The notes under the pieces: generated by a model
The model's input: only the letters and a program-made list of their open reading frames with translations
What the model was told of the DNA's origin: nothing
The model's database searches: none
Part shown: in pieces, positions 670-59,442 of the stretch
How positions within the stretch are numbered: the first letter of the stretch is position 1
How the letters are laid out: every line of letters starts with the position of its first letter
Position numbers and translations under genes: made by a program
Source of the DNA: Patescibacteria group bacterium
Lineage (GTDB): Bacteria > Patescibacteriota > Patescibacteriia > Patescibacteriales > JAQTRU01
Length of the DNA stretch: 64,000 nt
Direction of reading: 5' to 3'
Assembly (NCBI GenBank): GCA_041645555.1
Contig: JBAZPX010000001.1
Span: 204,731 to 268,730 of the forward strand

Positions 670-683
670 TTATTTTTTCATTT

Positions 684-822
684 TTGTCATCTCGACGATC
701 TCGTACCGCCGAGGCGGGACGAGGGAGGAGAGATCTGTAATAGGATGTTAGCGGTGTTGATAATGTATTATAGATTTCTCCCCGCTCAATGCGCTACGCT
801 TATGAGCGGGTCGAAATGACAA
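684..822. mobile_element. MITE-like non-coding element, family 1 (termini ttgtcatctcga ... tcgaaatgacaa)
   Basis: It has terminal inverted repeats. A homologous copy at 30621-30742 shares gaRatctgtaata, tattatagatttctc and gggtcgaaatgacaa. There is no credible ORF. Confidence 0.7.
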
Positions 823-841
823 AATATATACTTTAAAAATT

Positions 842-874
842 AAAAAAAGACCTACTGTGTTGCTTAGTAGGTCT
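842..874 (-). terminator. Rho-independent terminator abutting the stop of the 61-aa ORF
   Basis: Stem agacctact (848-856) pairs with agtaggtct (866-874). The A-run at 842-848 gives a U-run on the minus strand. Confidence 0.7.
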
Positions 875-1060
875 TTAAGAAGAATCCTGGCAGACTGGGC
901 CTGTGCCCTTACCAGTTTTGGCGCAAATACAGACGCCGGAGTATAAGCCATTTTCATTCGCTTTCATCCATGGCAAATACTTTAAAAAATAACCGCATTT
1001 CATGCATTTTTCCGGATTCACTCCCGGATAGGCATTTTTAACAAGAGCAGTAGCGGCCAT
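875..1060 (-). CDS. Small cysteine-rich protein (61 aa), unknown function
   Basis: GGGAGGTG Shine-Dalgarno lies 7 nt upstream of the ATG, and a terminator hairpin follows the stop immediately. It has five Cys, including a CMKCG knuckle and CICAKTGKGTGPVC. Confidence 0.6.
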   Translation of the reverse strand: MAATALVKNAYPGVNPEKCMKCGYFLKYLPWMKANENGLYSGVCICAKTGKGTGPVCQDSS

Positions 1061-1110
1061 AATTGCACCTCCCTATGTAAAGTTCAATTATCTTTTAGCC
1101 AAACATAAAG

Positions 1111-2223
1111 ATGATACAGCAAAAAAATAAAAATGTCAAAGTACTTCTAACTGGCGGGGGAACCGGAGGCTCGGTTTCGCCGCTTTTGGCGGTGGCTTCC
1201 GGACTTCGGATGTCGGATGTCGGACTTCGGACATATGAATTTTTGTGGGTGGGGACAAAATTTGGTCCAGAGCGGGAAATGGTTGAGAAAGACGGTATTA
1301 AATTTATAGCTATACCGAGTGGAAAATTAAGGCGTTATTTTTCTTTAAATAATTTTTTAGATCCTTTTAAGATTATTGCCGGATTTTTTAAATCTTTTTT
1401 TATAATTTTAAAATTCAAGCCGGATTTAATAATGACGGCTGGCGCTTTCGTGAGTGTGCCGATAGTTTGGGCGGGTTGGGTTCTGCGCGTACCGATTTTG
1501 GTTCATCAGCAGGACGTGCGGCCCGGCTTGGCTAACAAATTAATGGCGTTGTTTGCCCGCGTGGTTACCGTAACTTTTGAAGAATCATTGGCTAGCTATG
1601 GGAAGAAAGCGGTTTGGACAGGAAATCCCGTCAGATTTCAGATTTCAGATTTCAGATTTCAGATTGACGAATTTTGTAAGAAATATGGATTAAAAAGGAA
1701 CTTGCCAATAGTCTTAGTGGTTGGAGGGGGAACCGGCGCAGAAGCAATTAATAAACTGGTTTGGGAGAGTTTGGATGAACTAGTAAAAATTTGTCAGATT
1801 ATCCATATAACGGGAAAGAAAAAGGGAATCAGGAATCAGGAATCAGGAATCAGGAATTATGTTTCTTATGATTTTCTTGAACATGAAAAAGTGATGGGGA
1901 TTATGCAAGCGGCGGATTTGGTGGTTTCGCGAGCTGGGCTGGGATTTTTGACGGAAATTTCCTATTTAGGAAAACCGGCAATTATAATTCCGATTCCGGA
2001 TTCGCACCAGGAAGATAATGCCCAAGTATTTGTTAAAGATGAAGCGGCGATAATTTTAGACCAGAAAAAATTGACAGCAAAGGATTTTGCTAATAAGATA
2101 GGAGAATTATTAAAAGATGAAACTTTACGCCGTAAGTTAAGTAACAATGTGGCCGAGGTTATGAAGAAGGGGGCGAATGAAGCGATTGCGAAAATCGTGG
2201 AACTGGTAGCACGCAACGCCTAA
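1111..2223 (+). CDS. murG: UDP-GlcNAc:lipid I N-acetylglucosaminyltransferase MurG
   Basis: N-terminal LLTGGGTGGSVSPLLAVA glycine loop and C-terminal GT28 motifs (VVSRAGLGFLTEISYLGKPAIIIP). dcw-cluster context. Confidence 0.9.
   Translation: MIQQKNKNVKVLLTGGGTGGSVSPLLAVASGLRMSDVGLRTYEFLWVGTKFGPEREMVEKDGIKFIAIPSGKLRRYFSLNNFLDPFKIIAGFFKSFFIILKFKPDLIMTAGAFVSVPIVWAGWVLRVPILVHQQDVRPGLANKLMALFARVVTVTFEESLASYGKKAVWTGNPVRFQISDFRFQIDEFCKKYGLKRNLPIVLVVGGGTGAEAINKLVWESLDELVKICQIIHITGKKKGIRNQESGIRNYVSYDFLEHEKVMGIMQAADLVVSRAGLGFLTEISYLGKPAIIIPIPDSHQEDNAQVFVKDEAAIILDQKKLTAKDFANKIGELLKDETLRRKLSNNVAEVMKKGANEAIAKIVELVARNA
1201..1235 (+). repeat. Period-7 array inside murG (ggacttc ggatgtc ggatgtc ggacttc ggacata)
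   Basis: Read directly from the sequence. It encodes GLRMSDVGLRT in a variable MurG loop. Confidence 0.85.
1631..1665 (+). repeat. Heptanucleotide tandem repeat (tcagatt x5) inside murG
   Basis: Five perfect 7-nt units. It encodes RFQISDFRFQI. Confidence 0.9.
1824..1857 (+). repeat. Heptanucleotide tandem repeat (ggaatca x4 + ggaatt) inside murG
   Basis: Perfect units encoding GIRNQESGIRN. The same array, in the same frame, occurs in murC at 6041-6067. Confidence 0.9.
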
Positions 2224-2239
2224 CGAGTTTTACGGAAAT

Positions 2240-2267
2240 AAAAAAACCGCCAGCGAAATTCCGGCAG
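2240..2267 (-). terminator. Rho-independent terminator of the 135-aa membrane protein gene
   Basis: On the minus strand, CUGCCGG pairs with CUGGCGG (with G-U pairs) and is followed by a U7 run. Confidence 0.55.
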
Positions 2268-2278
2268 TCTGTCTCCCC

Positions 2279-2686
2279 CTATAAGAGGAATTTTGTTATA
2301 TTAACGTATAAAGCGTAAAGCAGAGCTAATAGAGAAAACGCAAAGATGGCAATGTAATTCCACTGGGCCTTGCTTGACCGCAGGCTCTTGGCAATATAGA
2401 GCAGAACGTTGCGGTCGCCCTTATTAAGTGGCTTATCGTGGTATAATTTATAGATAATTTTCCGTTCAATGATTAATTTTTTCCGTTTGTGCTCTATGTT
2501 GTAGCGGTGGGCAAAGTACCAAACAAAACCGATAGTGCCGATGTACCAGGCAATTTCTACCCAAAGCGCCGAGTAAAAGTTTAAGACGACAATGATGCGG
2601 TAGGCAATCGTAGCGATAATGCCAACCCAAAATACAAGCAGGCGGTAGGATTTGTGCGAAGTTTTCATTTTCTTTTTTTCGGGCAT
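2279..2686 (-). CDS. Small integral membrane protein (about 3 TM helices), unknown function
   Basis: Hydrophobic helices are visible in the translation, and a terminator lies downstream. AT-rich accessory context. Confidence 0.55.
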   Translation of the reverse strand: MPEKKKMKTSHKSYRLLVFWVGIIATIAYRIIVVLNFYSALWVEIAWYIGTIGFVWYFAHRYNIEHKRKKLIIERKIIYKLYHDKPLNKGDRNVLLYIAKSLRSSKAQWNYIAIFAFSLLALLYALYVNITKFLL

Positions 2687-2812
2687 ATTTTAGCAATCAA
2701 TAAATATTAAAGAGTATTGATTATTTATTGCTTTATTTTACCATACTTTTCAATTATGAGAAAGAACGCATATTGCATAGTTAGGTAAAATATTAAAATT
2801 ACTTGTTTTAAA

Positions 2813-3499
2813 ATGAATAATACAACGGATTATAAAATAATTGTTCGCGCTCAAACTGCCGATGAAGAGTTTAACTATCTTATCAAAGTTCTCGGGAAAA
2901 TGTCGTTTTATAATGAGCATGGCTACAAGATACCGATTCCTGATCATCCATTTTTTCTAAAAATTTCCAATAATCTTGATTTGCTTAAATCGTTGGATAT
3001 GGAAGAAGCGAGAGATATATTTAAAAGAGAAGTATATGATTTAGATTATTTTAAAAATGGATTGAAGACCGTAATCAAAGGAATTAGTTTAGCTGAAAAA
3101 GCGATAAAAAGAATGGAAAAATGGAAAAGCTGGGGATTTAAACTTTTTCCAAAATATGAAATTAGGCTGACGGCCTATGGACCGGGAGGATCATATGATT
3201 TTGATGCGGGGGATATTATTATAAAAACAAAGAAAGACGGCATATTTAAGCGTCGCAATCCAATTCATACTATAGTCCATGAAATTGTCCACATCGGAAT
3301 TGAAGAGTGCATTATAAAAAAGTTTAAACTAACGCATATTGAAAAAGAGGGACTTGTGGACGCAATATGCGCAAATTATTTTAAAGATATTTTAATTGAT
3401 TATGCAATACAAGAACGCGGTGATAAAAATATCTTTAATATTATTTCTGAAAATAGTATAGAAAACCTGCCAAAAAAATTGAAGAATACAAAAAAATAA
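2813..3499 (+). CDS. Hypothetical protein with an HExxH motif (putative zinc metallopeptidase-like)
   Basis: 228-aa ORF containing TIVHEIVHIGIEE. I recognise no family. Confidence 0.55.
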   Translation: MNNTTDYKIIVRAQTADEEFNYLIKVLGKMSFYNEHGYKIPIPDHPFFLKISNNLDLLKSLDMEEARDIFKREVYDLDYFKNGLKTVIKGISLAEKAIKRMEKWKSWGFKLFPKYEIRLTAYGPGGSYDFDAGDIIIKTKKDGIFKRRNPIHTIVHEIVHIGIEECIIKKFKLTHIEKEGLVDAICANYFKDILIDYAIQERGDKNIFNIISENSIENLPKKLKNTKK

Positions 3500-3512
3500 A
3501 GATTTTATAAAT

Positions 3513-3986
3513 ATGGCTCAAATTTATCAGACAGAAAATTTTATTGTTGAGGCCGTCGAACAACCACACGTTACTCGCACCGATGGCGGTCATCTGAAAA
3601 TTTCCCCCAAAGTGAGACTTATTGACCGTACGCAACTTTCACCTAAATTGGCGATTGAGCTTATGCGATTGACTATGCTGGTTGGCAAAGCAATGACCAT
3701 CGGCCTAAACAATCGAGGAATTGATGTGGGCAGGATAAACTATCAAGACAATGGCAATTGGAGCGTCTTTAAGCCGGAAGGTCCATATTTGCATATTCAT
3801 TTGTATGGTCGAGCTAAGAGCGCTAAAATTCATAAGTGGGGCGACGCTTGTAATTTCCCACATCGTGAAACTGGATTTTATGATAAATTTGAGCCTTTAG
3901 ATAATAAAGATATTTTAGAAATACAAAAACAAATTGAGATTTTGTTACGGCAAGATAAATATCAAGCTTCGGAGTGGGGGCTTTAA
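3513..3986 (+). CDS. HIT (histidine triad)-like nucleotide hydrolase/transferase family protein
   Basis: Histidine-triad-like motif HLHIHLYGR near the expected position. The size (157 aa) is typical of the family. Confidence 0.55.
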   Translation: MAQIYQTENFIVEAVEQPHVTRTDGGHLKISPKVRLIDRTQLSPKLAIELMRLTMLVGKAMTIGLNNRGIDVGRINYQDNGNWSVFKPEGPYLHIHLYGRAKSAKIHKWGDACNFPHRETGFYDKFEPLDNKDILEIQKQIEILLRQDKYQASEWGL

Positions 3987-4027
3987 AAAATTAAACATCG
4001 CATAACGTGGAACGTATAACATTAAAC

Positions 4028-4140
4028 TGTCATTCCCGCGAAAGCGGGAATCCAGGAGTGAACCATACGAATTAGACTTTGCAGAAAAGAAGATTAAAAT
4101 CACGCAACCCTGGATTCCGGCTCGGAGGCCGGAATGACAA
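4028..4140. mobile_element. MITE-like element, family 2 (tgtcattcccgcgaaagcgggaatccagg ... cctggattccggctcggaggccggaatgaca)
   Basis: About 30-nt terminal inverted repeats, each itself a hairpin. The element is 113 bp with no ORF. Confidence 0.7.
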
Positions 4141-4213
4141 GGGGTGGGAATGGGAGATAGTACGGAATATCCGATTCGCGAGCTAAATAAAATTATTTTT
4201 TATAAAATATATA

Positions 4214-4471
4214 ATGGATAATCTTATGGAAATATTATCTTTAATTTTTTCACTGTTAGCTTTAATCGTTTCTTCTTTTATTGCAATCAAAGGTTGGATG
4301 AGAAATAGAACCATTTACAATCTTGAATTTCATGAATTTTTACCAGACAAGCTTAGAGATGTTGGCAATAAAACAATTCGTGAAAAACTTAATTCCGGTG
4401 ATTATACAATATTGCATGCAAATTATACAGGCGCACAATACAATGTGTTGCTAGGTAAATTAAAAAAATAA
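4214..4471 (+). CDS. Small single-pass membrane protein, unknown function
   Basis: 85-aa ORF with an N-terminal hydrophobic helix (ILSLIFSLLALIVSSFIAI). There is no homology signal. Confidence 0.4.
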   Translation: MDNLMEILSLIFSLLALIVSSFIAIKGWMRNRTIYNLEFHEFLPDKLRDVGNKTIREKLNSGDYTILHANYTGAQYNVLLGKLKK

Positions 4472-4780
4472 TTTTATTCTTAACGCTCACTCTCCCTAAT
4501 TCAGCCACTTTTTAATTATAATAATTATAAATTTATGGAATATTTTGATTGGCCATTTATTATTAATGTAGCAATCGGTATCATTATTGGTGGTATAGTT
4601 TTATATTTACTTAAGGTTGCAGAGGAGTTAATTGTGGAAAAGTTGATGGACAGATAAAAGTAGACAAACTTTAGATATGCCGAAACGTTAGGCGAAATAG
4701 TTATTAAGAAAGGAGAAAAAATGATTTAAAAATAGGGCATATACATAGTAGTGTTATGCGTTGCGCGTTATGCGAATAAT

Positions 4781-6205
4781 ATGGATTTATCCAAGATAAA
4801 AAACATATACATGATCGGCATCAAAGGCGTGGGCATGACTATGCTCGCGCAGTTTTTGGCTGGCAAGGGTTTTTCCGTAAGCGGATCTGATATAAAGGAA
4901 AAATTTATGACGGATGAAGTTTTAAAGGATGCCGGCATAAAAGTGATAGAAGGGTTTTCTAAAGATAATCTTCCGAATGACGTTGATTTAATTATTTATT
5001 CCACGGCCTATAACGGAGAAAACAATGCGGAAGTGGCTAAGGCGCTAGCTGGTAAAACCAAAATCTTAACTTATGCCGAGGCCTTAGCGGAATTTTTTAA
5101 TTCCCATTTTGGCATAGCGGTAATCGGCTCGCACGGTAAAACTACGACCACGGCCTGGCTTGGATTCGTGCTCTCGCAAGCTGGCCTAGAGCCGAACGTT
5201 TTAGTCGGTTCCCGCGTTCCCCAATTTAACGGCTCCAGTCTGGTTGGTAAATCAGATTATTTGGTAGCGGAAATTGATGAATACCAGAATAAGTTTAAAT
5301 ATTTCCAGCCCCGGGCCACAATTCTTACCAATATTGATTATGACCATCCGGATTTTTTCCCGACCAAGCAGGATTATGAAGACGCTTTTATAAAATTTAT
5401 TGAAAAGCTTCCGGCTCGCGGTTTCCTGGTCGCTAATTTTGACGACCCTGCCATACGCAAAACCGTTAATGTCAATTGCCGGGCTAAAGTAATAAGTTAT
5501 GCCTTAAACGAAGTGGCCGATTATGTCGCTTATGATATTAAACAGGGAGCGGGAAAGCAATTTTTTAAAGTTAAGTTCGGTCTGGATGAAGAGGAAGCGG
5601 AAGGAGAAAGAGACGACCTATTGGGAGATTTTTCTATTCAGCTTTCCGGAGCGCATAACGTTTCTAACGCTTTGGCCGTGATTGCGGCAGGGATTGAGCT
5701 GGACGTTCCTTTAAATCTTATCAGGACTTATCTTGAAGAGTTTTCCGGCACGGCCCGGCGCATGCAGGTTTTAGGAGAGTACCGGGGAGCGACGATTATT
5801 GACGATTACGCCCATCACCCCACGGAAATAAAAGCGACCTTGGCCGGCGCCAGGCAGATTTATCCGAATAAAAAAATAATTGTGGTTTTCCATCCTCACA
5901 CTTTTACCCGCACCAAAGCTTTGCTTGATGATTTTTCCAAAAGTTTCGGACAGGCGGATGAAGTGATAGTTTTGGATATTTACGGGTCGGCGAGGGAGAA
6001 ACAAGGCGGGGTTAGCAGTAAAGATGTAGTGGAGAAAATTGGAATCAGGAATCAGGAATCAGGAATTAAGCAAAAATTAAACTATATTTCAACTCTTAGC
6101 GAATGTGAGAAGTATTTGCGGGAGAAGGCGGAGAGGGGAGACGTTATAATTTTAATGGGAGCCGGAGACGTTTTCCGCATCGGGGAGAACTTGGTAAAGG
6201 GCTAA
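4781..6205 (+). CDS. murC: UDP-N-acetylmuramate--L-alanine ligase MurC
   Basis: Mur ligase motifs are present (GIKGVGMT, GSHGKTTTT, DDYAHHPTE). I place the start at the ATG at 4781 (MDLSKIKNIYMIGIKG) rather than the GTG at 4751. Confidence 0.9.
   Translation: MDLSKIKNIYMIGIKGVGMTMLAQFLAGKGFSVSGSDIKEKFMTDEVLKDAGIKVIEGFSKDNLPNDVDLIIYSTAYNGENNAEVAKALAGKTKILTYAEALAEFFNSHFGIAVIGSHGKTTTTAWLGFVLSQAGLEPNVLVGSRVPQFNGSSLVGKSDYLVAEIDEYQNKFKYFQPRATILTNIDYDHPDFFPTKQDYEDAFIKFIEKLPARGFLVANFDDPAIRKTVNVNCRAKVISYALNEVADYVAYDIKQGAGKQFFKVKFGLDEEEAEGERDDLLGDFSIQLSGAHNVSNALAVIAAGIELDVPLNLIRTYLEEFSGTARRMQVLGEYRGATIIDDYAHHPTEIKATLAGARQIYPNKKIIVVFHPHTFTRTKALLDDFSKSFGQADEVIVLDIYGSAREKQGGVSSKDVVEKIGIRNQESGIKQKLNYISTLSECEKYLREKAERGDVIILMGAGDVFRIGENLVKG
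6041..6067 (+). repeat. Heptanucleotide tandem repeat (ggaatca x3 + ggaatt) inside murC
   Basis: Encodes GIRNQESGI, the same unit and frame as murG 1824-1857. Confidence 0.9.
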
Positions 6206-6286
6206 GATTGAAACCTTTTTACTGATTTTACGTATATTTATAGAGGGAAAGAGAAATTCCTCTTATTTTTATTGGTTGTCATATTT

Positions 6287-8080
6287 ATGATTGAAAAAGA
6301 ATTAAATCTAAAACTGGACAGAAGGCCGATTAATATGCGCCAGTTTTGGCTAAGACTGTGGCGGTTAATCGCGCCGGCGCATAAGCAAATTATTTATTTG
6401 CTTGTTTTAACAATGTTTTTAGAAGGATCTAAATTCATCGGCCCATATTTAGTTAAAAGAATTATTGACTTAATTACCGACTTTAAAGTTGAGTATATAG
6501 AAAATATAATAATTTTGATTATTTTGATATTAATTTCCGATTTGTTAGTCAACCTCATAGATTATTTCGGGGATAAAAAAATATTTAGAATTATTGTCGG
6601 CGTGGAAAGGTATTTATCAATTAACGCCCAGAAGAAAATGGTAGAGCTGGGGCTGGCTTACCATGAAAAAGAAAATACCGGCAATAAAATTTTTAAGATT
6701 CATAGGGGTATTGATAAGATAACCGACCTGATAGGCAATTTTTTCTGGGAAGTCGGGCCGACGATTATCCAGGTGGTTATGACCGGAGTTATTTTATTTT
6801 TGGTTGACTGGCGTTTTGGCTTAATTTTTTCCCTTTTTACCCCGGTTTTTATTTATCTGACCGCGAAGCTGAATAAAAAAATTTCTCCCTTGCGCCGATT
6901 GAGGCATGATTTGTACGAAGAAGCCGCCGGCAAAATGACCCAGACAATAATAAATATTAATACCGTGAAATCATTCGTCCAGGAGGAGAGAGAGGTAAAC
7001 GAGTTTAAAAAGATAAAAGATAAAAGCAAGAAAGTCGCGCTGTTCGAATTTTTTAAGATGCTTAGCTATAATTATTCCCGCAGCGCGGTTATAACCGCCG
7101 GCCGGGTTTTAATAATACTTTTCGGCGTTTATTTGGTTTGGAACGGCGGCATTACTATCGGCAGTTTAGTCTTTATAATTACGATTTCGGAAAAGGCCCT
7201 TGTTTCCCTATTTAGAATTTCCCGGCTTTATGACCGGATTATGGATTCAAGCGAGGCGATTGACCGCCTTTATAAACTGGCTAATCAGGAACTTGATATT
7301 ATTAACCCGGCTAATGGCCTTAAAGTGAAAGACCTGCGGGGCCAGGTTGAGTTTAAAGGCGTAACTTTCATTTATAAAGACAGCCGAGTAAGGGCGCTTG
7401 ATAAAGTAGATTTTAAAATAAATTCCGGCTGCACCACGGCTTTAATCGGCCCGTCCGGCGGCGGAAAAACTACGGTCGCGCGCCTGATTTACCGGCATTA
7501 TGATCCGCAAAGCGGGACGGTATTTTTGGACGATAAGAATTTAAAAGACTATGATTTATATGAGTTTAGAAAATTTATAGCGATTGTGCCGCAGGAAGTA
7601 GAAGTTTTTAATACGAGCGTAAAAGATAATATTTCTTACGCCAACCCGGGCGCTAGCTTGGCGGAGATCAAGGCCGCGGCCAAAATTGCCAATGCCGACG
7701 AGTTTATTGACCAGTTATCGGATAAATATGAAACTTTGGTCGGGGAACGGGGGATTAAACTCTCCGGCGGGCAGAAGCAAAGAATCGGCATTGCCCGGGC
7801 GGTTTTGGCTAATCCGCGGATTTTGATTTTTGACGAAGCGACTTCTAATTTAGACAGCAAAAGCGAAAAATTAATTCAGGAAGCGATGGAAAAAATTAAA
7901 CGGGGCAGAACCGTAATAGTTATTGCCCATCGCTTAAGCACGATAAAGAAAGCGGATAAAATTATTGTTTTAGAAGACGGGAAAGTGTCTGAAGAGGGCA
8001 GCCACTATGAGTTAGCCAGTAGAAATGGCGGCTTGTACGCCGAACTGTTAAAGTTGCAGAGGATGGGGGACGTGGACTAG
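6287..8080 (+). CDS. ABC transporter, fused permease/ATPase (MsbA/ABCB-type exporter)
   Basis: Six-TM N-terminal domain, Walker A GPSGGGKTT, signature LSGGQKQRIGIARA and Walker B ILIFDEATS. The ATG at 6287 is preferred over the TTG at 6272. Confidence 0.85.
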   Translation: MIEKELNLKLDRRPINMRQFWLRLWRLIAPAHKQIIYLLVLTMFLEGSKFIGPYLVKRIIDLITDFKVEYIENIIILIILILISDLLVNLIDYFGDKKIFRIIVGVERYLSINAQKKMVELGLAYHEKENTGNKIFKIHRGIDKITDLIGNFFWEVGPTIIQVVMTGVILFLVDWRFGLIFSLFTPVFIYLTAKLNKKISPLRRLRHDLYEEAAGKMTQTIININTVKSFVQEEREVNEFKKIKDKSKKVALFEFFKMLSYNYSRSAVITAGRVLIILFGVYLVWNGGITIGSLVFIITISEKALVSLFRISRLYDRIMDSSEAIDRLYKLANQELDIINPANGLKVKDLRGQVEFKGVTFIYKDSRVRALDKVDFKINSGCTTALIGPSGGGKTTVARLIYRHYDPQSGTVFLDDKNLKDYDLYEFRKFIAIVPQEVEVFNTSVKDNISYANPGASLAEIKAAAKIANADEFIDQLSDKYETLVGERGIKLSGGQKQRIGIARAVLANPRILIFDEATSNLDSKSEKLIQEAMEKIKRGRTVIVIAHRLSTIKKADKIIVLEDGKVSEEGSHYELASRNGGLYAELLKLQRMGDVD

Positions 8081-8123
8081 CGATTTTAGAATTAAGATTT
8101 TAGAATTAAGATTTAAATAAAAA

Positions 8124-8151
8124 AACGCTCGGGTGCTGCCTGAGCGTTTTT
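8124..8151 (+). terminator. Rho-independent terminator after the ABC transporter gene
   Basis: Hairpin acgctc...gagcgt followed by ttttt. Confidence 0.65.
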
Positions 8152-8200
8152 GATGGGTCAAGGGCTGGATTTTTATCTGTTTTTTTGGTAAAATTTGTAG

Positions 8201-8235
8201 TAGGATTATTAAGATTTTTGGGATTCTTAGGATTT
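8201..8235. repeat. Intergenic word array (taggatt/aagattt words) upstream of murB
   Basis: taggattattaagatttttgggattcttaggattt. The same word set recurs downstream of murB at 9180-9222. Confidence 0.8.
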
Positions 8236-8237
8236 GT

Positions 8238-9176
8238 ATGGGAAATATTCAAAAAGACATACCTTTAGCCCAGTTTACCACTTTCCGGATTGGCGGGCCG
8301 GCTAAGTTTTTTATTGAAGTAAAAGAGAAAGATAATTTGCTGGAGGCGATAAAATGGGCTAAGGAGAGTAAAGAAAAATTTTATATTTTGGGCGGGGGCA
8401 GCAATATAATAATAAACGATAAGGGAGTTGACGGTTTAGTGATAAAAATGGCTAATGATAATATTACGGTTCATGGCGAAAGAATGGAGACCGGAGCCGG
8501 AGCGACTTTAGCCCGGGCTGTGCTCCTCGCCACTGGTGAAAATTTGTCCGGTTTGGAATGGGCGGCCGGCATTCCCAGAGCGACAATCGGCGGAGCGATT
8601 CGGGGAAATGCCGGCGCTTTTAGCTTGTCTATGGCTGAAGTAGCGGAGACGGTTGAAGTCTTTAATGTTAAAAAGGAAAAATTTGAATTATTCAGCCATA
8701 AAGACTGCCGGTTTGATTATCGCGAAAGTATTTTTAAGAAAGATAATAGTTATTTAATTTGGAACGTTGTTCTCAAACTGGAAAAGGGAAATAAAATCCA
8801 GATTCAATCCGCGGTAAATAAATTTTTAGAATCAAGGCAGAGCCGGCAGCCAAAACTTCCCAGCGCCGGTTCGGTTTTTAAAAATTTGCCGCTTGATTAT
8901 TTAAAAGAGAACAATGCGAACATAGCGGACTTAGCCAACAAGGCCGGCGTTGTTAAAGAAGGCAAAGTCGGAGCCGGCTGGCTGATAGAGCTGGCTGGGC
9001 TTAAGGGCAAAAAAATCGGGGGAGCAAAAGTGAGCTTAGAGCACGCTAATTTTATTGTTAACACCAGCCAAGCCACGGCCGAAGATATTGTGATGCTAAT
9101 TAGTTATATTAAGCAGCAAGTCAGGAACAGGTTTAATATCCAGTTGCAGGAAGAAGTACAGTATTTAGGGTTTTGA
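8238..9176 (+). CDS. murB: UDP-N-acetylenolpyruvoylglucosamine reductase MurB
   Basis: FAD-binding N-terminus (FTTFRIGGPAKFF, LGGGSNII) and C-terminal MurB motifs (PSAGSVFKNL, HANFIVN). Confidence 0.9.
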   Translation: MGNIQKDIPLAQFTTFRIGGPAKFFIEVKEKDNLLEAIKWAKESKEKFYILGGGSNIIINDKGVDGLVIKMANDNITVHGERMETGAGATLARAVLLATGENLSGLEWAAGIPRATIGGAIRGNAGAFSLSMAEVAETVEVFNVKKEKFELFSHKDCRFDYRESIFKKDNSYLIWNVVLKLEKGNKIQIQSAVNKFLESRQSRQPKLPSAGSVFKNLPLDYLKENNANIADLANKAGVVKEGKVGAGWLIELAGLKGKKIGGAKVSLEHANFIVNTSQATAEDIVMLISYIKQQVRNRFNIQLQEEVQYLGF

Positions 9177-9485: not shown

Positions 9486-10721
9486 ATGGATAATATCTCA
9501 ATCTTGGACAAAATAATCAATAATCAGAAAGCCGAAGAAATAGCGAAATTAAATGCGGTGGAAATCGTAAATAATTTGCTGGGCGAACTGGCGGACAGGG
9601 AAAAAGACGTCCTTACCCGTCGTTTTGGTTTGCATGGCCAGGGCAAAGAAACCTTAGAAAAGGTGGGCCAGGCCCATAAGCTTACCAGGGAAAGAATAAG
9701 GCAGATTGAAGTTTCCGGCATAAAGAAACTGCGCCAGCTGGAAAAGCTCGGGAGTTATGTTGATATTTTAAAGAAAGTAACTTCGCAGCTTCTGGAAGAG
9801 CACGGCGGGCTTATGGAAAGGCAGTATCTGCTTAATGCTTTAGCTAAATTTTCCTTAAACGGCGACGGCCGGGAAAAAGACGAGGAGCTGATCCATAAAA
9901 GCCACCTTGATTTTCTTATTTCTAAATTATTGCCGGAAGAATTTGAAGAGGTAAGCGACTCCGAGTTATTTTTGGATTTTTATAAATTAAGATATCAAAC
10001 TCTTGATCATTTAGAAGAGTTATCCCTTGAATTGATTGAGAAGATAGAAAGCCTTAAAAAAATATTTAATACGGAAGAGATGATAGATATTTTCACTAAA
10101 CTGGAAGGCTATAATAAAAATCGTGAGAAATTTAATATTCCTTACAGCCTTGATATCTCAAGAATTTTAGGCAACAATTCTTTTGCGGAAAAATTTGAGG
10201 TCATAAACAGCCATAAAGTTTTATATTCCCTCCTGCGGGCTTTAAGGAAGGTTGAGCAGAATAAATTCGGCGATTGGGGAATTTATGACTGGCGGGAAAT
10301 AAAACCGAAGACCATAAACGATAAGATATACCTCGTCTTAAAAAACCATGGCAAGCCGATGCATTTTGCCGAGATTGCCGACCATATTAATCAGACCGGT
10401 TTTGACAGCAAAAAGGCCAATGCCGCCACGGTCCATAATGAGCTTATTCTCGACGAGAAATATGTTTTAGTCGGACGCGGCCTTTATGGCTTAAAAGAAT
10501 GGGGGTATAAAGAGGGTACGGTCGCTGACGTTATAAAGGATATTTTAACCCAAGCCGGCAAGCCCCTGACTCGCGACGAGATTATTGATAAGGTTTTAGA
10601 AAAACGTTTGGTAAAAAAGACGACTATAGTTTTAGCCCTAATGAACAGGGAAATGTTTGAGAAGGCCGGGAATAAATACCAGTTAATAGAAAGCTTAAAG
10701 ACGGCTGACGTAAACAAATAA
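9486..10721 (+). CDS. Sigma-70 region-4-like HTH protein with C-terminal HARE-HTH-like domains
   Basis: EKDVLTRRFGL...TLEKVGQAHKLTRERIRQIE resembles sigma region 4. The C-terminus has winged-helix segments (PMHFAEIADHI..., GKPLTRDEIIDKVL). Confidence 0.7.
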   Translation: MDNISILDKIINNQKAEEIAKLNAVEIVNNLLGELADREKDVLTRRFGLHGQGKETLEKVGQAHKLTRERIRQIEVSGIKKLRQLEKLGSYVDILKKVTSQLLEEHGGLMERQYLLNALAKFSLNGDGREKDEELIHKSHLDFLISKLLPEEFEEVSDSELFLDFYKLRYQTLDHLEELSLELIEKIESLKKIFNTEEMIDIFTKLEGYNKNREKFNIPYSLDISRILGNNSFAEKFEVINSHKVLYSLLRALRKVEQNKFGDWGIYDWREIKPKTINDKIYLVLKNHGKPMHFAEIADHINQTGFDSKKANAATVHNELILDEKYVLVGRGLYGLKEWGYKEGTVADVIKDILTQAGKPLTRDEIIDKVLEKRLVKKTTIVLALMNREMFEKAGNKYQLIESLKTADVNK

Positions 10722-30575: not shown

Positions 30576-30620
30576 GGACTAGTTAATTAGGTATTAGGTT
30601 TTAGGTGTTAGTTTATTTTT

Positions 30621-34757: not shown

Positions 34758-34841
34758 TGCCCAGGGAGAGAATCGAACTCTCATGGACTTGCGTCCACAC
34801 GATTTTGAGTCGTGCGCGTCTACCAGTTCCGCCACCAGGGC
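34758..34841 (-). tRNA. tRNA-Leu (anticodon CAA), class II with long variable arm; CCA not encoded
   Basis: Minus strand reads GCCCTGGTGGCGGAACTGGTAGACGCGCACGACTCAAAATCGTGTGGACGCAAGTCCATGAGAGTTCGATTCTCTCCCTGGGCA. T-arm GAGAG-TTCGATT-CTCTC, anticodon loop CTCAAAA, one U-U mismatch in the acceptor stem. Confidence 0.85.
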
Positions 34842-35037
34842 CTTTTGATTTTAGATTTTAGATTTTAGGATTACTCCTCTTTTTAAGCCATTGGAGATGT
34901 GAATAAAAATGGGCTTTAAGCCCTTTCACAATAGTTTGGCTGTTTTCAGTATAATAAAATTAGATTAAATTGTCAAAACGGTGCGGATAAGTTATAATAA
35001 TGGGGTAATACCAAAAAGTTCAAATGGCAAAATCAAA

Positions 35038-36250: not shown

Positions 36251-36262
36251 AATGTAGTATTT

Positions 36263-36340
36263 GGGATTTTTAGGATTTTTACGATTCTTGAGATTCTTAA
36301 GATCCTAATAATCCCAAGAATCCTAAGAATCACAATAATC
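36263..36340. repeat. Intergenic period-9 word palindrome (gattcttRa / aatcctaag)
   Basis: gggatttttaggatttttacgattcttgagattcttaagatcc faces aatcccaagaatcctaagaatcacaataatc. Confidence 0.85.
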
Positions 36341-37332: not shown

Positions 37333-37418
37333 TGGGATCTTTAGGATTCTTACGATTTTTGGGATTCTTGGGATTTTTTAAAAACTCTATCTTAAGAATC
37401 CTAAGAATCTCAAGAATC
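37333..37418. repeat. Intergenic period-9 word palindrome (same word family as 36263-36340)
   Basis: gggatctttaggattcttacgatttttgggattcttgggatt faces cttaagaatcctaagaatctcaagaatcc. Confidence 0.85.
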
Positions 37419-37476
37419 CATAGGGAGAAAAGCGTTAGGTGTTATACGTTATGCGAAGGTATGTTATAATATAGGC

Positions 37477-52979: not shown

Positions 52980-52982
52980 CGG

Positions 52983-53074
52983 AAGATTTAAGAATTATGA
53001 ATTATGAATAAAGTGAAAATAGAATCAAAAAAATTAACTTATCATTCTTAAATCTTAATTCTAAATTCTTAATT
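52983..53074. repeat. Intergenic word palindrome (aagaatt/aattctt words)
   Basis: aagatttaagaattatgaattatgaata faces tatcattcttaaatcttaattctaaattcttaa. Confidence 0.8.
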
Positions 53075-58024: not shown

Positions 58025-59278
58025 ATGGCTGAAACAAAAAACAAAAAAATTATTATGGCGATGTCCCCGCGCAAATCCCTTCGGGATTCTGCGGGGCAAG
58101 CTGGCGGCAATAAAAAAAAGCACATAATTATAGCGATGTCGGGCGGAGTTGATTCTTCGGTGGCTGCAAAATTATTAAAGGACCAGGGGCATGACCTTTT
58201 GGGAATCTTTTTGCATTTCTGGAAGGATGAAAATAATCCCCCTAACCCCCTTTATCAAGGGGGTGCGGCAGAGAATAAATGCTGTTCGCTTGAAGCTTTA
58301 ATGGACGCCAGACGGGTTTGCTCCAATATCGGCATACCTTTCTATACCCTGAATTTCAGCAGTATTTTTAAAAAAGAGGTGGTCGATGACTTTCTTGATG
58401 AATATAAAAAGGGCAATACTCCTAATCCCTGTATCCGTTGCAACAAATTGGTTAAGCTGGGTTTGCTTGTCGAGCGAGCGAAAAAATTAGGGTTTGACTA
58501 TGTGGCCAGCGGCCACTATGTGAAAAACCAAAAACCAAAAACCAAAAACCAAAAATATAAATTATATAGAGCGAAAGATAAGAACAAAGACCAATCATAT
58601 TTTTTATACACTCTGACGCAAGAGCAATTGGAACATCTGCTTTTCCCTTTGGGGAATTATATAAAAGAGGGGGTGAGAAAAATAGCCGGAGCTTCCGGTC
58701 TGCCGGTGGCAGCGAAAAAAGAAAGCCAGGAAATTTGTTTTATTTCCGGCAAAAGCCACAATGATTTTTTAAAAAGATATCTTAAATTAAAACCGGGGCC
58801 AATAAAACTATTACCTCACCCTGGCCCTCTCCTAATTAGGAGAGGGGAGGAGCTCCGCCAGCCGGCGGAGCGAAGGGGTGAGGTAATTGGTAAGCACCAG
58901 GGTCTGCCTCTTTATACCATCGGCCAAAGGAAGGGAGTGGAGATCGGAGGTGTCGGCCCGTTTTATGTAGCTAAATGCGATTATAAAAGCAATACTTTGT
59001 ATGTGGTGAAGGACGGCGATGACCCGGCTCTGTATGATAGTAAACTAATAGCCGGCAATGTCAACTGGATAGCCGGGCAAGAGCCAAAAATACCTCTTAC
59101 CTGCGAAGCGGTAATCAGATATAGGCACAAACCCACGAAGTGTAAAGTTACAAAGTCAAAAGTTAAAAGTAGTTATATAGTAAAATTTAAAAAGCCGCAG
59201 AGGGCGATTACGCCTGGGCAAAGCGTAGTTTTTTATAAGAAAGATGAGGTTTTGGGCGGCGGGGTTATTAGTCCTTAG
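58025..59278 (+). CDS. mnmA: tRNA 2-thiouridine(34) synthase MnmA, carrying several in-frame insertions
   Basis: PP-loop AMSGGVDSS, NPCIRCN, SGHYV, KDQSYFLY, QEICF, HQGLPLYTIGQRKG and C-terminal ITPGQSVVFY all align with E. coli MnmA. Confidence 0.9.
   Translation: MAETKNKKIIMAMSPRKSLRDSAGQAGGNKKKHIIIAMSGGVDSSVAAKLLKDQGHDLLGIFLHFWKDENNPPNPLYQGGAAENKCCSLEALMDARRVCSNIGIPFYTLNFSSIFKKEVVDDFLDEYKKGNTPNPCIRCNKLVKLGLLVERAKKLGFDYVASGHYVKNQKPKTKNQKYKLYRAKDKNKDQSYFLYTLTQEQLEHLLFPLGNYIKEGVRKIAGASGLPVAAKKESQEICFISGKSHNDFLKRYLKLKPGPIKLLPHPGPLLIRRGEELRQPAERRGEVIGKHQGLPLYTIGQRKGVEIGGVGPFYVAKCDYKSNTLYVVKDGDDPALYDSKLIAGNVNWIAGQEPKIPLTCEAVIRYRHKPTKCKVTKSKVKSSYIVKFKKPQRAITPGQSVVFYKKDEVLGGGVISP
58810..58887 (+). 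repeat. 78-nt element bounded by perfect 12-nt inverted repeats, in frame inside mnmA
   Basis: attacctcaccc ... gggtgaggtaat, with internal hairpin gccctctcctaattaggagagggg. It replaces ~5 residues of the E. coli alignment with 26 residues. Confidence 0.75.
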
Positions 59279-59344
59279 GTGTTAGCTTTTAGCTTCTAGA
59301 GCGGTATTTTGTATCTCTATTGTTTTATGGTATAATATTATTAT

Positions 59345-59442
59345 TAAGATTCTTAAGACTCTTGGGATATTTATGATTTTTGAGAAACTCGGAACTTTGA
59401 AATCCTAAGAATCTTAAGAATCGCGATAATCCTAAAAATCTC
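59345..59442. repeat. Period-9 word palindrome between an extended -10 element (59327-59335) and the first Cys-rich paralog
   Basis: aagattcttaagactcttgggat ... aaatcctaagaatcttaagaatcgcgataatcc. TGGTATAAT lies just upstream, so the palindrome is probably in the 5' UTR. Confidence 0.8.

What the first reader, a model, noticed from the sequence alone, without database searches (positions are those of the whole stretch)
1201..1857. Three separate period-7 repeat tracts inside murG, one shared in the same frame with murC
murG contains ggaYKtc x5 (1201-1235), tcagatt x5 (1631-1665) and ggaatca x4 (1824-1857). murC contains ggaatca x3 (6041-6067). The ggaatca tracts are read in the same frame in both genes and give the same peptide, GIRNQESGI. 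By alignment with E. coli MurG and MurC they fall in variable loops. A 7-nt unit is not a multiple of 3, so gain or loss of one or two units by slipped-strand mispairing would frameshift an essential cell-wall gene. Only steps of three units preserve the frame. That is the architecture of a contingency (phase-variable) locus, which is very unusual in murG and murC. Alternatively the tracts are footprints of a tiny insertion process that also seeds the intergenic word arrays.
Basis: partly seen in the sequence, partly recalled or inferred. Interest (0 to 1): 0.65.

Follow-up and report, generated by a model that had tools for sequence, protein, structure and literature searches.

The report
In-frame 7-base repeats inside murG
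Three short runs of a 7-base repeat sit in frame inside the essential cell-wall gene murG, and a fourth in murC, of a Patescibacteria genome; they are real, they lie in flexible loops that carry other 7-base repeats throughout this clade, and they look like tolerated slippage-prone microsatellites rather than a demonstrated on/off switch.

Summary
murG (1111-2223) carries three period-7 tracts and murC (4751-6205) carries one. Period 7 is the only repeat period enriched in the window: 10 perfect arrays against 0.09 expected.

The genome is a Falkowbacteria-like Patescibacteria MAG. The tracts are not peculiar to it. In relatives the same three MurG loops and the same MurC loop carry other heptanucleotide arrays (AAATTAC, CAATTAT, TTTTCAA, GACAGAC and others). 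68 of the 120 nearest MurG homologues show 7-residue periodicity at these sites.

The tracts coincide with the lowest-confidence loops of the AlphaFold model. "Same frame, same peptide" is automatic, because every frame of a 7-nt array gives the same cyclic heptapeptide.

A sister population shows unit-number ladders: site 1 has 6 or 8 units, and site 2 has 6, 8, 10, 12 or 14. Some counts are out of frame, but this comes from assemblies only. Site 3 and the murC tract keep a fixed unit number across species.

Best reading: lineage-wide heptamer slippage, filtered by selection to permissive loops, stop-free units and in-frame lengths. An adaptive phase switch is unproven.

The parts
1111..2223 (+). 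murG CDS (370 aa; Glyco_transf_28 plus Glyco_tran_28_C)
1201..1235 (+). Site 1 tract: GGACTTC GGATGTC GGATGTC GGACTTC GGACATA. Encodes GLRMSDVGLRT, at the end of helix 1 and the loop before strand 2.
   Evidence: Adds 5 aa relative to P. aeruginosa MurG 3s2u. pLDDT block 31-40 = 68.
1631..1665 (+). Site 2 tract: TCAGATT x5, perfect (in register AGATTTC x4 plus AGATTGA). Encodes RFQISDFRFQI, directly after the conserved GNPVR motif in the interdomain linker.
   Evidence: Adds 5 aa relative to 3s2u. pLDDT blocks 171-190 = 70 and 65.
1825..1859 (+). Site 3 tract: GGAATCA x4 plus GGAATTA. Encodes GIRNQESGIRN, in a C-domain loop.
   Evidence: pLDDT below 50 at residues 239-244.
4751..6205 (+). murC CDS (Mur ligase). 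The true start is probably the ATG at 4781.
6041..6068 (+). murC tract: GGAATCA x3 plus GGAATTA. Encodes GIRNQESGIK, in a loop of the C-terminal domain.
   Evidence: Adds 6 aa relative to MurC 9ir5.
58523..58555 (+). AAAAACC x4.7, in frame in mnmA (tRNA 2-thiouridylase). Encodes KNQKPKTKNQK. This is the fifth coding heptamer array in the window.
30586..30613 (.). Intergenic period-7 array (ATTAGGT-like), just after a stop codon.
34840..34872 (.). Intergenic period-7 array (GATTTTA).
52982..53074 (.). Two intergenic period-7 arrays: GAATTAT at 52982-53011 and TCTTAAA-like at 53046-53074.

Best explanation
The tracts are heptanucleotide microsatellites. They are made and maintained by a tendency, shared across this Patescibacteria lineage, for DNA to slip or copy in 7-nt register.

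The process acts everywhere in the genome. In coding DNA, selection lets arrays survive only under three conditions:
1. They lie in loops or linkers that tolerate any sequence.
2. The unit has no stop codon in any phase of the sense strand.
3. The net length keeps the reading frame, so viable changes are steps of three units (21 nt, 7 aa).

MurG has three such permissive segments and MurC has one, and these have carried arrays since before this clade diversified. Within an array, units turn over by point mutation followed by expansion and contraction (concerted evolution). Occasionally one array appears to be copied onto another in the same genome, which would explain GGAATCA occurring in both murG and murC.

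The arrays encode sequence-unconstrained linker peptides. A slip of one or two units would be a frameshift hazard. It is not shown to be a used switch.

Shown: the period-7 excess, the conservation of sites with turnover of units, the loop location, the in-frame length variants, and the stop-free sense strand.

Inferred: slippage as the generating process, inter-array copying, and near-neutrality.
For: Period-7 excess:
- Period 7 alone is enriched in the window.
- The same holds in 471 kb from 29 sequences, the window plus 28 related loci. There are 100 period-7 arrays, against 14 for period 8 and 5 or fewer for periods 5, 6 and 9-12.
- Arrays are about four times denser outside long ORFs than inside them. 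33 arrays fall in 15% of the bases and 48 in the other 85%.

Same sites, different units:
- The three MurG sites and the MurC site carry different heptamer units in relatives.
- 68 of the 120 nearest MurG homologues have tripeptide repeats at lag 7. These cluster at relative positions 0.45-0.55 and 0.60-0.70.

Concerted change:
- The window's site 2 is AGATTTC x4 plus AGATTGA. L003's site 2 is GGATTTC GGATGTC GGATTTT GGATGTC GGATTGA. Both have five units and a nearly identical 3' flank.

Loop location:
- The tracts coincide with the lowest-pLDDT internal blocks of the model.
- They coincide with gaps in alignments to solved MurG and MurC structures.

Selection filter:
- Sense-strand units are stop-free, whereas every intergenic unit carries a stop on the strand as written, and five of the six on the other strand as well.
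- In-frame length alleles differ by 7 or 14 aa.
- Between two strains that are 98% identical, the only indels in 2.7 kb lie at sites 1 and 2.

Sharing between arrays:
- Separate arrays in one genome share a dominant unit in 7.6% of pairs, against 2.2% between genomes (permutation p = 0.001).

Literature:
- Heptameric SSRs are reported as over-represented in many bacteria, and a polymerase-footprint slippage hypothesis has been proposed (PMC4692102).
Against: - A first 7-nt duplication in an essential gene is itself a frameshift. De novo birth by simple slippage is therefore hard to explain, and the model relies on ancient origin or on copying of ready-made arrays.
- Sister-population contigs carry out-of-frame unit counts as the assembled consensus in at least 10 samples. 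That is unexpected for a merely tolerated hazard in an essential gene.
- Why 7 nt in particular is not explained by any test I ran.
- The 28 loci were chosen around murG, so murG arrays are over-sampled among the coding arrays.
Confidence: 0.6

Rival explanations
1. True contingency locus. Slippage by one or two units reversibly switches murG (and murC) off and on, giving the population a bet-hedging switch over peptidoglycan synthesis.
For: - The unit length is not a multiple of 3 and the arrays lie inside coding sequence.
- Site 1 lies near the 5' end of the gene.
- In a sister population site 1 has 6 units (out of frame, giving an 80-aa ORF) in 20 contigs, of which I inspected 10. It has 8 units (in frame) in 10 contigs.
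- Site 2 has 6, 8, 10, 12 or 14 units, of which only 6 and 12 are in frame.
- The 6-unit allele occurs on two flanking haplotypes.
- One MEGAHIT assembly from the same study gives 8 units, so collapse of the repeat by the assembler is not deterministic.
- A precedent exists. neuO of E. coli K1 switches through a coding AAGACTC repeat and is translated in full only when the count is divisible by 3 (PMC13001214).
Against: - murG and murC are essential housekeeping genes (established knowledge), so an off state should be lethal.
- The window's tracts have only 4-5 units. They are identical in the second contig that carries the gene.
- Site 3 and the murC tract keep their unit number across species.
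- All out-of-frame alleles differ by 14 nt, which is the higher-order period. That is also what a repeat mis-assembly would produce.
- The five JGI contigs found by the flank pattern all carry the in-frame 8-unit site 1 allele.
- L029 also has a nonsense codon, which points to decay rather than switching.
- The same arrays occur in mnmA and between genes.
Confidence: 0.13
2. Footprints of a copy-and-paste process. Ready-made heptamer arrays are written into new sites by ectopic gene conversion, by template switching between nearby arrays, or by an unknown element, rather than growing in place.
For: - The same array, including its degenerate last unit GGAATTA, occurs in murG site 3 and in murC.
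- L026 has GTAAGAA GTTAGAA GTTAGAA GTAAGAA at both site 2 and site 3. The sister species uses GGAYKTC-type units at both site 1 and site 2.
- Units are shared within a genome more often than between genomes, p = 0.001.
- This route avoids the frameshift problem of de novo birth.
Against: - In MurC, relatives show a graded series. It runs from non-repetitive ARNKEL (AGAAATAAAGAATTAGAA) through GGAATTA/GGAATAA to GGAATCA, which suggests homogenisation in place.
- The arrays replace ancestral loop residues rather than adding clean blocks of 21 nt.
- No target-site duplication, terminal repeat or associated gene was seen.
- A limited vocabulary of stop-free units could inflate the apparent sharing.
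Confidence: 0.17
3. The repeats are selected for a function of their own. They might serve as a peptide module (linker or heptad), or as a DNA or RNA signal such as a protein-binding or methylation site related to the intergenic GATTC/GAATC word arrays.
For: - The sites are conserved across the clade.
- GGAATCA contains GAATC, the reverse complement of the GATTC core of the intergenic 9-mers.
Against: - Unit sequences, and therefore peptides, differ completely between relatives at the same site.
- AGATTTC and GGAYKTC lack the GANTC core.
- The regions have low pLDDT and are loop-like.
Confidence: 0.06
4. Chance, or an assembly artefact in the window.
For: None beyond the general difficulty of assembling repeats.
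Against: - 10 arrays are observed against 0.09 expected.
- A second contig from an ENA assembly matches at 100% over 8,396 bases.
- Homologous arrays occur in dozens of MAGs built with different assemblers.
- All tracts are in frame within intact ORFs.
Confidence: 0.01

Closest known systems
neuO of E. coli K1 (CUS-3 prophage): coding heptanucleotide repeat (AAGACTC)n
   Same: A 7-nt unit inside a coding sequence. The full-length protein is made only when the count keeps the frame, that is in steps of three units. The repeat is translated into a 7-residue periodic peptide (PMC13001214).
   Different: - The neuO repeat is a long tract at the 5' end (3-53 units) in a dispensable, phage-borne surface-modification gene, and its switching has been measured.
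- Here the tracts have 4-5 units and lie in internal loops of essential chromosomal genes.
- There are three per gene, they are conserved in position across a clade, and no switching has been shown.
Over-represented heptameric SSRs of bacteria (GGGAATC in Xanthomonas; GGGGAYT and the STRR repeats in Nostoc and Calothrix)
   Same: - A genome-wide excess of period-7 tandem repeats over other long periods.
- Extensive length and sequence variation between close relatives at the same loci.
- One unit here (AGGAATC, a rotation of GGAATCA) differs by one base from the Xanthomonas unit (PMC4692102).
   Different: - Those repeats are described as intergenic and G-rich, with potential to form G-quadruplexes.
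- Here more than half of the arrays lie in frame inside ORFs.
- The units here are AT-rich with no G runs, and they recur at fixed protein loops.
Classical contingency loci (tetranucleotide and other SSRs in Haemophilus and Neisseria)
   Same: A slippage-prone SSR whose unit is not a multiple of 3 lies inside a reading frame. Site 1 is near the N-terminus, where a frameshift does most damage (compare PMC3315296).
   Different: - Contingency genes are dispensable surface, restriction-modification or LPS genes with long tracts and demonstrated reversible switching.
- murG and murC are core genes, and the tracts here are short.
Tandem repeats in Borg elements that create disordered protein regions
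   Same: Rapidly evolving nucleotide tandem repeats, specific to each genome. Inside ORFs they add low-complexity, probably disordered peptide segments (PMC9879509).
   Different: All Borg repeats inside ORFs have unit lengths divisible by three. Here the unit is 7 nt, so the frame survives only for particular unit counts.
Rickettsia palindromic elements (in-frame selfish insertions; from my own knowledge, not tested here)
   Same: Small repeated DNA is tolerated in frame in surface loops of essential proteins. Relatives of this genome also carry in-frame palindromes at MurG site 1 and at the MurG N-terminus.
   Different: RPEs are dispersed palindromic elements of 100-150 bp with a defined consensus, not tandem 7-mers.

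Membership tests
Contingency (phase-variable SSR) locus | A tandem SSR with a unit that is not a multiple of 3, located inside the ORF or promoter | tested here: met
   Four period-7 tracts lie inside murG and murC.
Contingency (phase-variable SSR) locus | Unit-number polymorphism within populations or between close strains, including out-of-frame (off) alleles | tested here: inconclusive
   - Window species: the one other contig that carries the gene is identical.
- Sister population: site 1 has 6 or 8 units, and site 2 has 6, 8, 10, 12 or 14.
- This evidence comes from assemblies only. All steps are 14 nt, and no reads were available.
Contingency (phase-variable SSR) locus | The gene is dispensable and mediates interaction with a variable environment (surface, LPS, restriction-modification) | tested here: not met
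   The genes are murG and murC by Pfam and PDB homology. Both are core peptidoglycan enzymes (established knowledge).
Contingency (phase-variable SSR) locus | Reversible, high-frequency switching of expression | not testable with these tools
   This needs cultures, fragment analysis or deep read data.
Bacterial heptameric SSR class (Mrazek 2007; Xanthomonas, Nostoc) | Period-7 tandem repeats over-represented relative to other periods of 4-11 nt | tested here: met
   window; 29 sequences, 100 period-7 arrays.
Bacterial heptameric SSR class (Mrazek 2007; Xanthomonas, Nostoc) | Predominantly intergenic location | tested here: not met
   - 5 of 9 arrays in the window are coding, and 48 of 81 in the clade sample.
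- Density per base is still about four times higher outside ORFs.
Bacterial heptameric SSR class (Mrazek 2007; Xanthomonas, Nostoc) | G-rich unit able to form a G-quadruplex (GGGNATC, GGGGAYT) | tested here: not met
   The units GGAATCA, AGATTTC and GGAYKTC contain no run of three or more G.
neuO-type translated heptad VNTR | A heptanucleotide repeat translated in frame, with full-length product only at frame-keeping counts | tested here: met
   The sister alleles of 407 and 421 aa differ by 14 aa.
neuO-type translated heptad VNTR | A long 5'-terminal tract (tens of units) in an accessory, phage-borne gene | tested here: not met
   The tracts are internal, have 4-5 units, and lie in chromosomal genes of the cell-division and cell-wall (ftsW-murG-murC-murB) cluster.
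Borg-type amino-acid tandem repeats | Unit length inside ORFs is divisible by three | tested here: not met
   The unit is 7 nt. Compare PMC9879509.

The most novel reading that the evidence does not exclude
In this Patescibacteria clade, murG is a genuinely phase-variable or split essential gene. Under this reading, heptamer slippage at conserved loops switches lipid II synthesis off and on, or produces two-piece MurG, in a substantial part of natural populations. The out-of-frame alleles assembled in at least 10 samples of a sister population would then be real and biologically used. The clade-wide retention of 7-nt arrays, which cannot be lost one unit at a time, would be selected for that purpose.
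Probability: 0.12. Interest if true: 0.85.

Novelty: new variant of a known kind. Interest (0 to 1): 0.55.

Why it matters
- Heptanucleotide SSRs are known mainly as intergenic curiosities, or as the switch of one accessory gene (neuO). Here they sit in frame at fixed loops of core cell-wall enzymes across a clade of ultra-small, uncultured bacteria.
- This gives a natural experiment on how a strong mutational bias is filtered by protein structure and by the genetic code: stop-free units, steps of three units, permissive loops.
- It flags a systematic source of apparent frameshifts or pseudogenes in CPR MAG annotation.
- If the out-of-frame alleles prove real, an essential peptidoglycan gene would be subject to stochastic inactivation in nature.
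- The tracts are also ready-made strain-typing (VNTR) markers for these populations.

Tried and rejected
- Chance was rejected by Markov shuffles and by comparing periods.
- An assembly artefact in the window was rejected. A second contig is identical, and homologous arrays occur in many MAGs.
- "Same reading frame in murG and murC" was rejected as evidence of a shared origin. Every frame gives the same cyclic peptide.
- A clean insertion of n x 21 nt relative to array-free relatives was rejected. The arrays replace about 8-9 ancestral loop residues and add only 3-4 aa net.
- A G-quadruplex explanation, as proposed for Xanthomonas and Nostoc, was rejected because the units have no G runs.
- I searched for further cryptic 7-aa periodic segments in the other 42 ORFs of the window. 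There is no excess at lag 7 beyond murG, murC and mnmA.
- A flank-anchored pattern scan of JGI metagenome contigs, looking for other site 1 alleles, found only five contigs. All were of the sister species and all carried the in-frame 8-unit allele. The window species was not found.
- Literature searches for heptamer or simple-sequence repeats in Patescibacteria, CPR or Parcubacteria returned nothing relevant in the held library.
- Deterministic MEGAHIT collapse as the full explanation of the 6-unit site 1 allele is weakened but not excluded. One MEGAHIT assembly from the same study gives 8 units.
Full report
**1. What is in the sequence**

murG is the ORF at 1111-2223 on the + strand (370 aa). 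It contains three period-7 tracts.
- Site 1 (S1), 1201-1235: GGACTTC GGATGTC GGATGTC GGACTTC GGACATA.
- Site 2 (S2), 1631-1665: TCAGATT x5, perfect.
- Site 3 (S3), 1825-1852: GGAATCA x4, perfect, followed by a degenerate GGAATTA at 1853-1859.

murC (4751-6205) contains GGAATCA x3 plus GGAATTA at 6041-6068. Both genes encode GIRNQESGI.

**2. Is it more than chance?**

Perfect tandem arrays of at least 2.5 units number 10 for period 7. Every other period from 4 to 15 gives 0-4. Third-order Markov shuffles of the window give a mean of 0.09 for period 7. Arrays of at least 4 units at 85% or better self-match exist only for period 7. There are nine. Five are coding (three in murG, one in murC, and AAAAACC x4.7 in mnmA at 58523-58555). 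Four are intergenic. A second public contig is 100% identical to window 765-9160, with the same unit numbers.

**3. Whose genome, and what do relatives look like?**

The closest proteins and loci are all MAGs of Patescibacteria, many of them labelled Falkowbacteria. Aligning 25 MurG homologues shows that S1, S2 and S3 are the hypervariable parts of an otherwise well-conserved protein. In relatives they hold other 7-residue periodic peptides, such as ITNYKLQITN, QLSITNYQLSI, FRMSDFGCRISDVGFRMSD and KVHKVESKK.

At DNA level these peptides are other heptanucleotide arrays.
- AAATTAC x5 occurs in L003 and L007 at S3.
- CAATTAT/CAATTAC occurs in L005 at S2.
- TTTTCAA x4 occurs in L008 and L009 at S2.
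- GACAGAC x4 occurs in L010 at S2.
- GAATTAC/GAATTAA occurs in L004 and L007 at S1.
- GTAAGAA/GTTAGAA occurs in L026 at both S2 and S3.
- A few arrays are 8-mers or 14-mers.

The MurC loop behaves the same way.
- GGAATTA/GGAATAA occurs in L002 and L003.
- CTAAAAG/CTACAAG occurs in L011.
- ATTAAAA/ATTACGA occurs in L024.
- Relatives without a repeat are 4 aa shorter.

Of the 120 nearest MurG homologues, 68 contain tripeptide repeats at lag 7. By comparison, 4-10 proteins do at lags 5, 6 and 9, and 25 do at lag 8. The lag-7 repeats concentrate at relative positions 0.45-0.55 and 0.60-0.70, which correspond to S2 and S3.

In 471 kb from 29 sequences (the window plus 28 related loci) there are 100 period-7 arrays. 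Period 8 gives 14, and periods 5, 6 and 9-12 give 5 or fewer each. After merging overlapping hits, and leaving out one sister-species locus, 81 arrays remain. 48 lie inside long ORFs and 33 outside. Because 85% of the bases lie in long ORFs, density is about four times higher outside ORFs. The loci were selected around murG, so murG is over-sampled among the coding arrays.

**4. Where the tracts sit in the proteins**

Compared with P. aeruginosa MurG (3s2u):
- S1 adds 5 residues after helix 1.
- S2 adds 5 residues directly after the conserved GNPVR motif, in the interdomain linker.
- S3 occupies a segment of similar length.

Compared with MurC 9ir5, the murC tract adds 6 residues in a loop of the C-terminal domain.

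The AlphaFold2 model has mean pLDDT 83 and pTM 0.82. Three of its four lowest internal blocks fall on the tracts. Residues 31-40 score 68, residues 171-190 score 70 and 65, and residues 231-250 score 65 and 61, with values below 50 at 239-244. A fourth block, residues 71-80, also scores 68 and holds no tract.

Relatives without arrays have loops only 3-4 aa shorter. The arrays have therefore replaced ancestral loop residues rather than being clean insertions.

**5. Two consequences of 7 being coprime to 3**

First, all three frames of a heptamer array give cyclic permutations of one heptapeptide. "Same frame, same peptide" in murG and murC therefore follows automatically once the strand is the same.

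Second, an in-frame array of three or more units passes through every phase, so the unit must contain no stop codon in any phase. The coding units meet this condition on the sense strand, and AGATTTC and GGAATCA each carry a stop on the antisense strand. All six intergenic units carry a stop on the strand as written, and five of them also do on the other strand.

**6. Dynamics**

S3 and the murC tract keep their unit number (5 and 4) across species that are 73-80% identical, while individual units change.

The window's S2 (AGATTTC x4 plus AGATTGA) is orthologous to L003's S2 (GGATTTC GGATGTC GGATTTT GGATGTC GGATTGA). Both have five units and a nearly identical 3' flank. One substitution has spread through every unit, which is concerted evolution.

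In a sister population (77-80% identity), cluster members and their contigs show the following.
- In-frame alleles of 407 and 421 aa differ by 14 aa at S2.
- S1 has 8 units in ten contigs. These come from JGI assemblies, two SPAdes assemblies and one MEGAHIT assembly.
- S1 has 6 units in the ten MEGAHIT contigs I inspected. All ten carry the P0128 variant, which is recorded on 14 contigs. The near-identical variant P0129 is recorded on 6 more, for 20 in all.
- The 6-unit allele is out of frame and ends an 80-aa ORF at a TGA codon.
- S2 has 6, 8, 10, 12 or 14 units, of which only 6 and 12 are in frame.
- S3 is constant.
- L029 also carries a GAA-to-TAA nonsense change.

Between two strains that are 98.2% identical, the only indels in 2.7 kb lie at S1 (14 nt) and S2 (42 nt).

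All out-of-frame alleles differ by multiples of 14 nt, the higher-order period of those arrays. Both real slippage and mis-assembly of a repeat would give that pattern. The 6-unit allele occurs on two flanking haplotypes, and one MEGAHIT assembly from the same study gives 8 units. In my judgement this favours a real allele, but only reads can settle it.

**7. Sharing between sites**

Separate arrays in the same genome share the same dominant unit in 7.6% of pairs. Between genomes the figure is 2.2% (permutation p = 0.001). The murG S3 and murC pair is one of ten such within-genome cases. This suggests occasional copying between arrays, although a limited vocabulary of stop-free units may contribute. 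In MurC, a graded series runs from non-repetitive ARNKEL codons through GGAATTA/GGAATAA to GGAATCA. That series argues for homogenisation in place at that site.

**8. Interpretation**

The best-supported reading has confidence 0.6. A lineage-wide bias towards slippage or copying in 7-nt register acts across the whole genome, and selection filters what survives in coding DNA. Arrays persist only in loops that tolerate any sequence, with stop-free units and with a frame-keeping length.

Because the loops are needed for chain connectivity, the arrays persist and turn over rather than disappear. They are frameshift hazards. Longer or more perfect arrays, such as the sister population's S1 and S2, are visibly unstable. 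The window's tracts of 4-5 units appear stable.

The contingency-locus reading (0.13) has the right architecture and a real precedent in neuO, where an AAGACTC repeat allows translation only at counts divisible by 3 (PMC13001214). It fails on the kind of gene involved and on evidence of reversible switching. A copy-and-paste origin (0.17) remains open. It would solve the problem that a first 7-nt duplication in an essential gene is itself a frameshift.

**9. Comparison with what is known**

[quoted passage not shown] Examples are intergenic GGGAATC in Xanthomonas and GGGGAYT in Nostoc, and a polymerase-footprint hypothesis has been proposed (PMC4692102). Borg tandem repeats create new disordered protein regions, but always with units divisible by 3 (PMC9879509).

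I found no description in the held library of in-frame heptanucleotide arrays at conserved loops of core genes in Patescibacteria. That absence covers this library only. I rate the finding a new variant of a known kind, with interest 0.55.

Noticed in passing
window 8201-8235, 36260-36340, 37336-37419, 59340-59440: Directly upstream of four start codons lie arrays of 9-nt words (GGGATTTTT, AGGATTCTT and similar). In three of the four regions they are followed by the same words inverted (AAGAATCCT and similar); at 8201-8235 only the forward words are present. The cores are GATTC/GAATC, which fit GANTC. They look like promoter-region or binding-site arrays and have period 9, not 7.
   Followed up: partly
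window 682-824; L001 9560-9700: An imperfect hairpin element has conserved ends (TTTGTCATCTCGAC ... GTCGAAATGACAAA) and a variable interior. The window (ftsW upstream) and the otherwise identical contig L001 (Memo-like gene upstream) diverge inside it, at about position 765. This is either a rearrangement or an assembly join at a dispersed repeat.
   Followed up: partly
window 58523-58555: AAAAACC x4.7 lies in frame inside mnmA (tRNA 2-thiouridylase) and encodes KNQKPKTKNQK. This is a fifth heptamer array in a housekeeping gene.
   Followed up: partly
L002, L003, L008, L014, L015, L024, L026 at MurG site 1; N-termini of P0002, P0005, P0006, P0008-P0010: Relatives carry other small in-frame inserts in MurG. 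One kind is a GC-rich perfect hairpin at site 1 (for example cccctctcctaattaggagagggg, giving PPAPLLIRRGE). The other is an N-terminal insert VNPVRNSS...ISNGV, whose two ends would be reverse-complement codons if back-translated (inferred from the peptide; I did not look at the DNA). This recalls the in-frame palindromic elements of Rickettsia.
   Followed up: partly
L029 2801-4052: In one sister-population contig, murG is broken twice. Site 1 has an out-of-frame 6 units, and a GAA-to-TAA nonsense change lies inside the GGAATCA tract. The neighbouring ftsW is intact. This may be a real pseudogene.
   Followed up: partly
L017 site 2 (about 10590-10650); clade sample: Period 8 is the second most common array period (14 arrays). 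An example is AAAACACG x7 at MurG site 2 of L017, giving NTKTRKHENTKTRKHE. The 7-nt preference is therefore strong but not absolute.
   Followed up: no
window 875-1060 (-): A small ORF of 61 aa lies on the opposite strand just upstream of murG. An ORF of 66 aa is present at the same position in all sister-population contigs. It has no Pfam hit on record.
   Followed up: no
window 8082-8114: GATTTTAGAATTAA x2.4 (period 14, perfect) lies immediately after the stop codon of the ABC transporter gene. A stem-loop with a T run follows at about 8124-8150.
   Followed up: no
L023 10001-11054: The murG match in this 454-kb Falkowbacteria contig reads out of frame after site 1 when I translate it. I did not check whether this is a sequencing indel or a real frameshift at the repeat site.
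   Followed up: no
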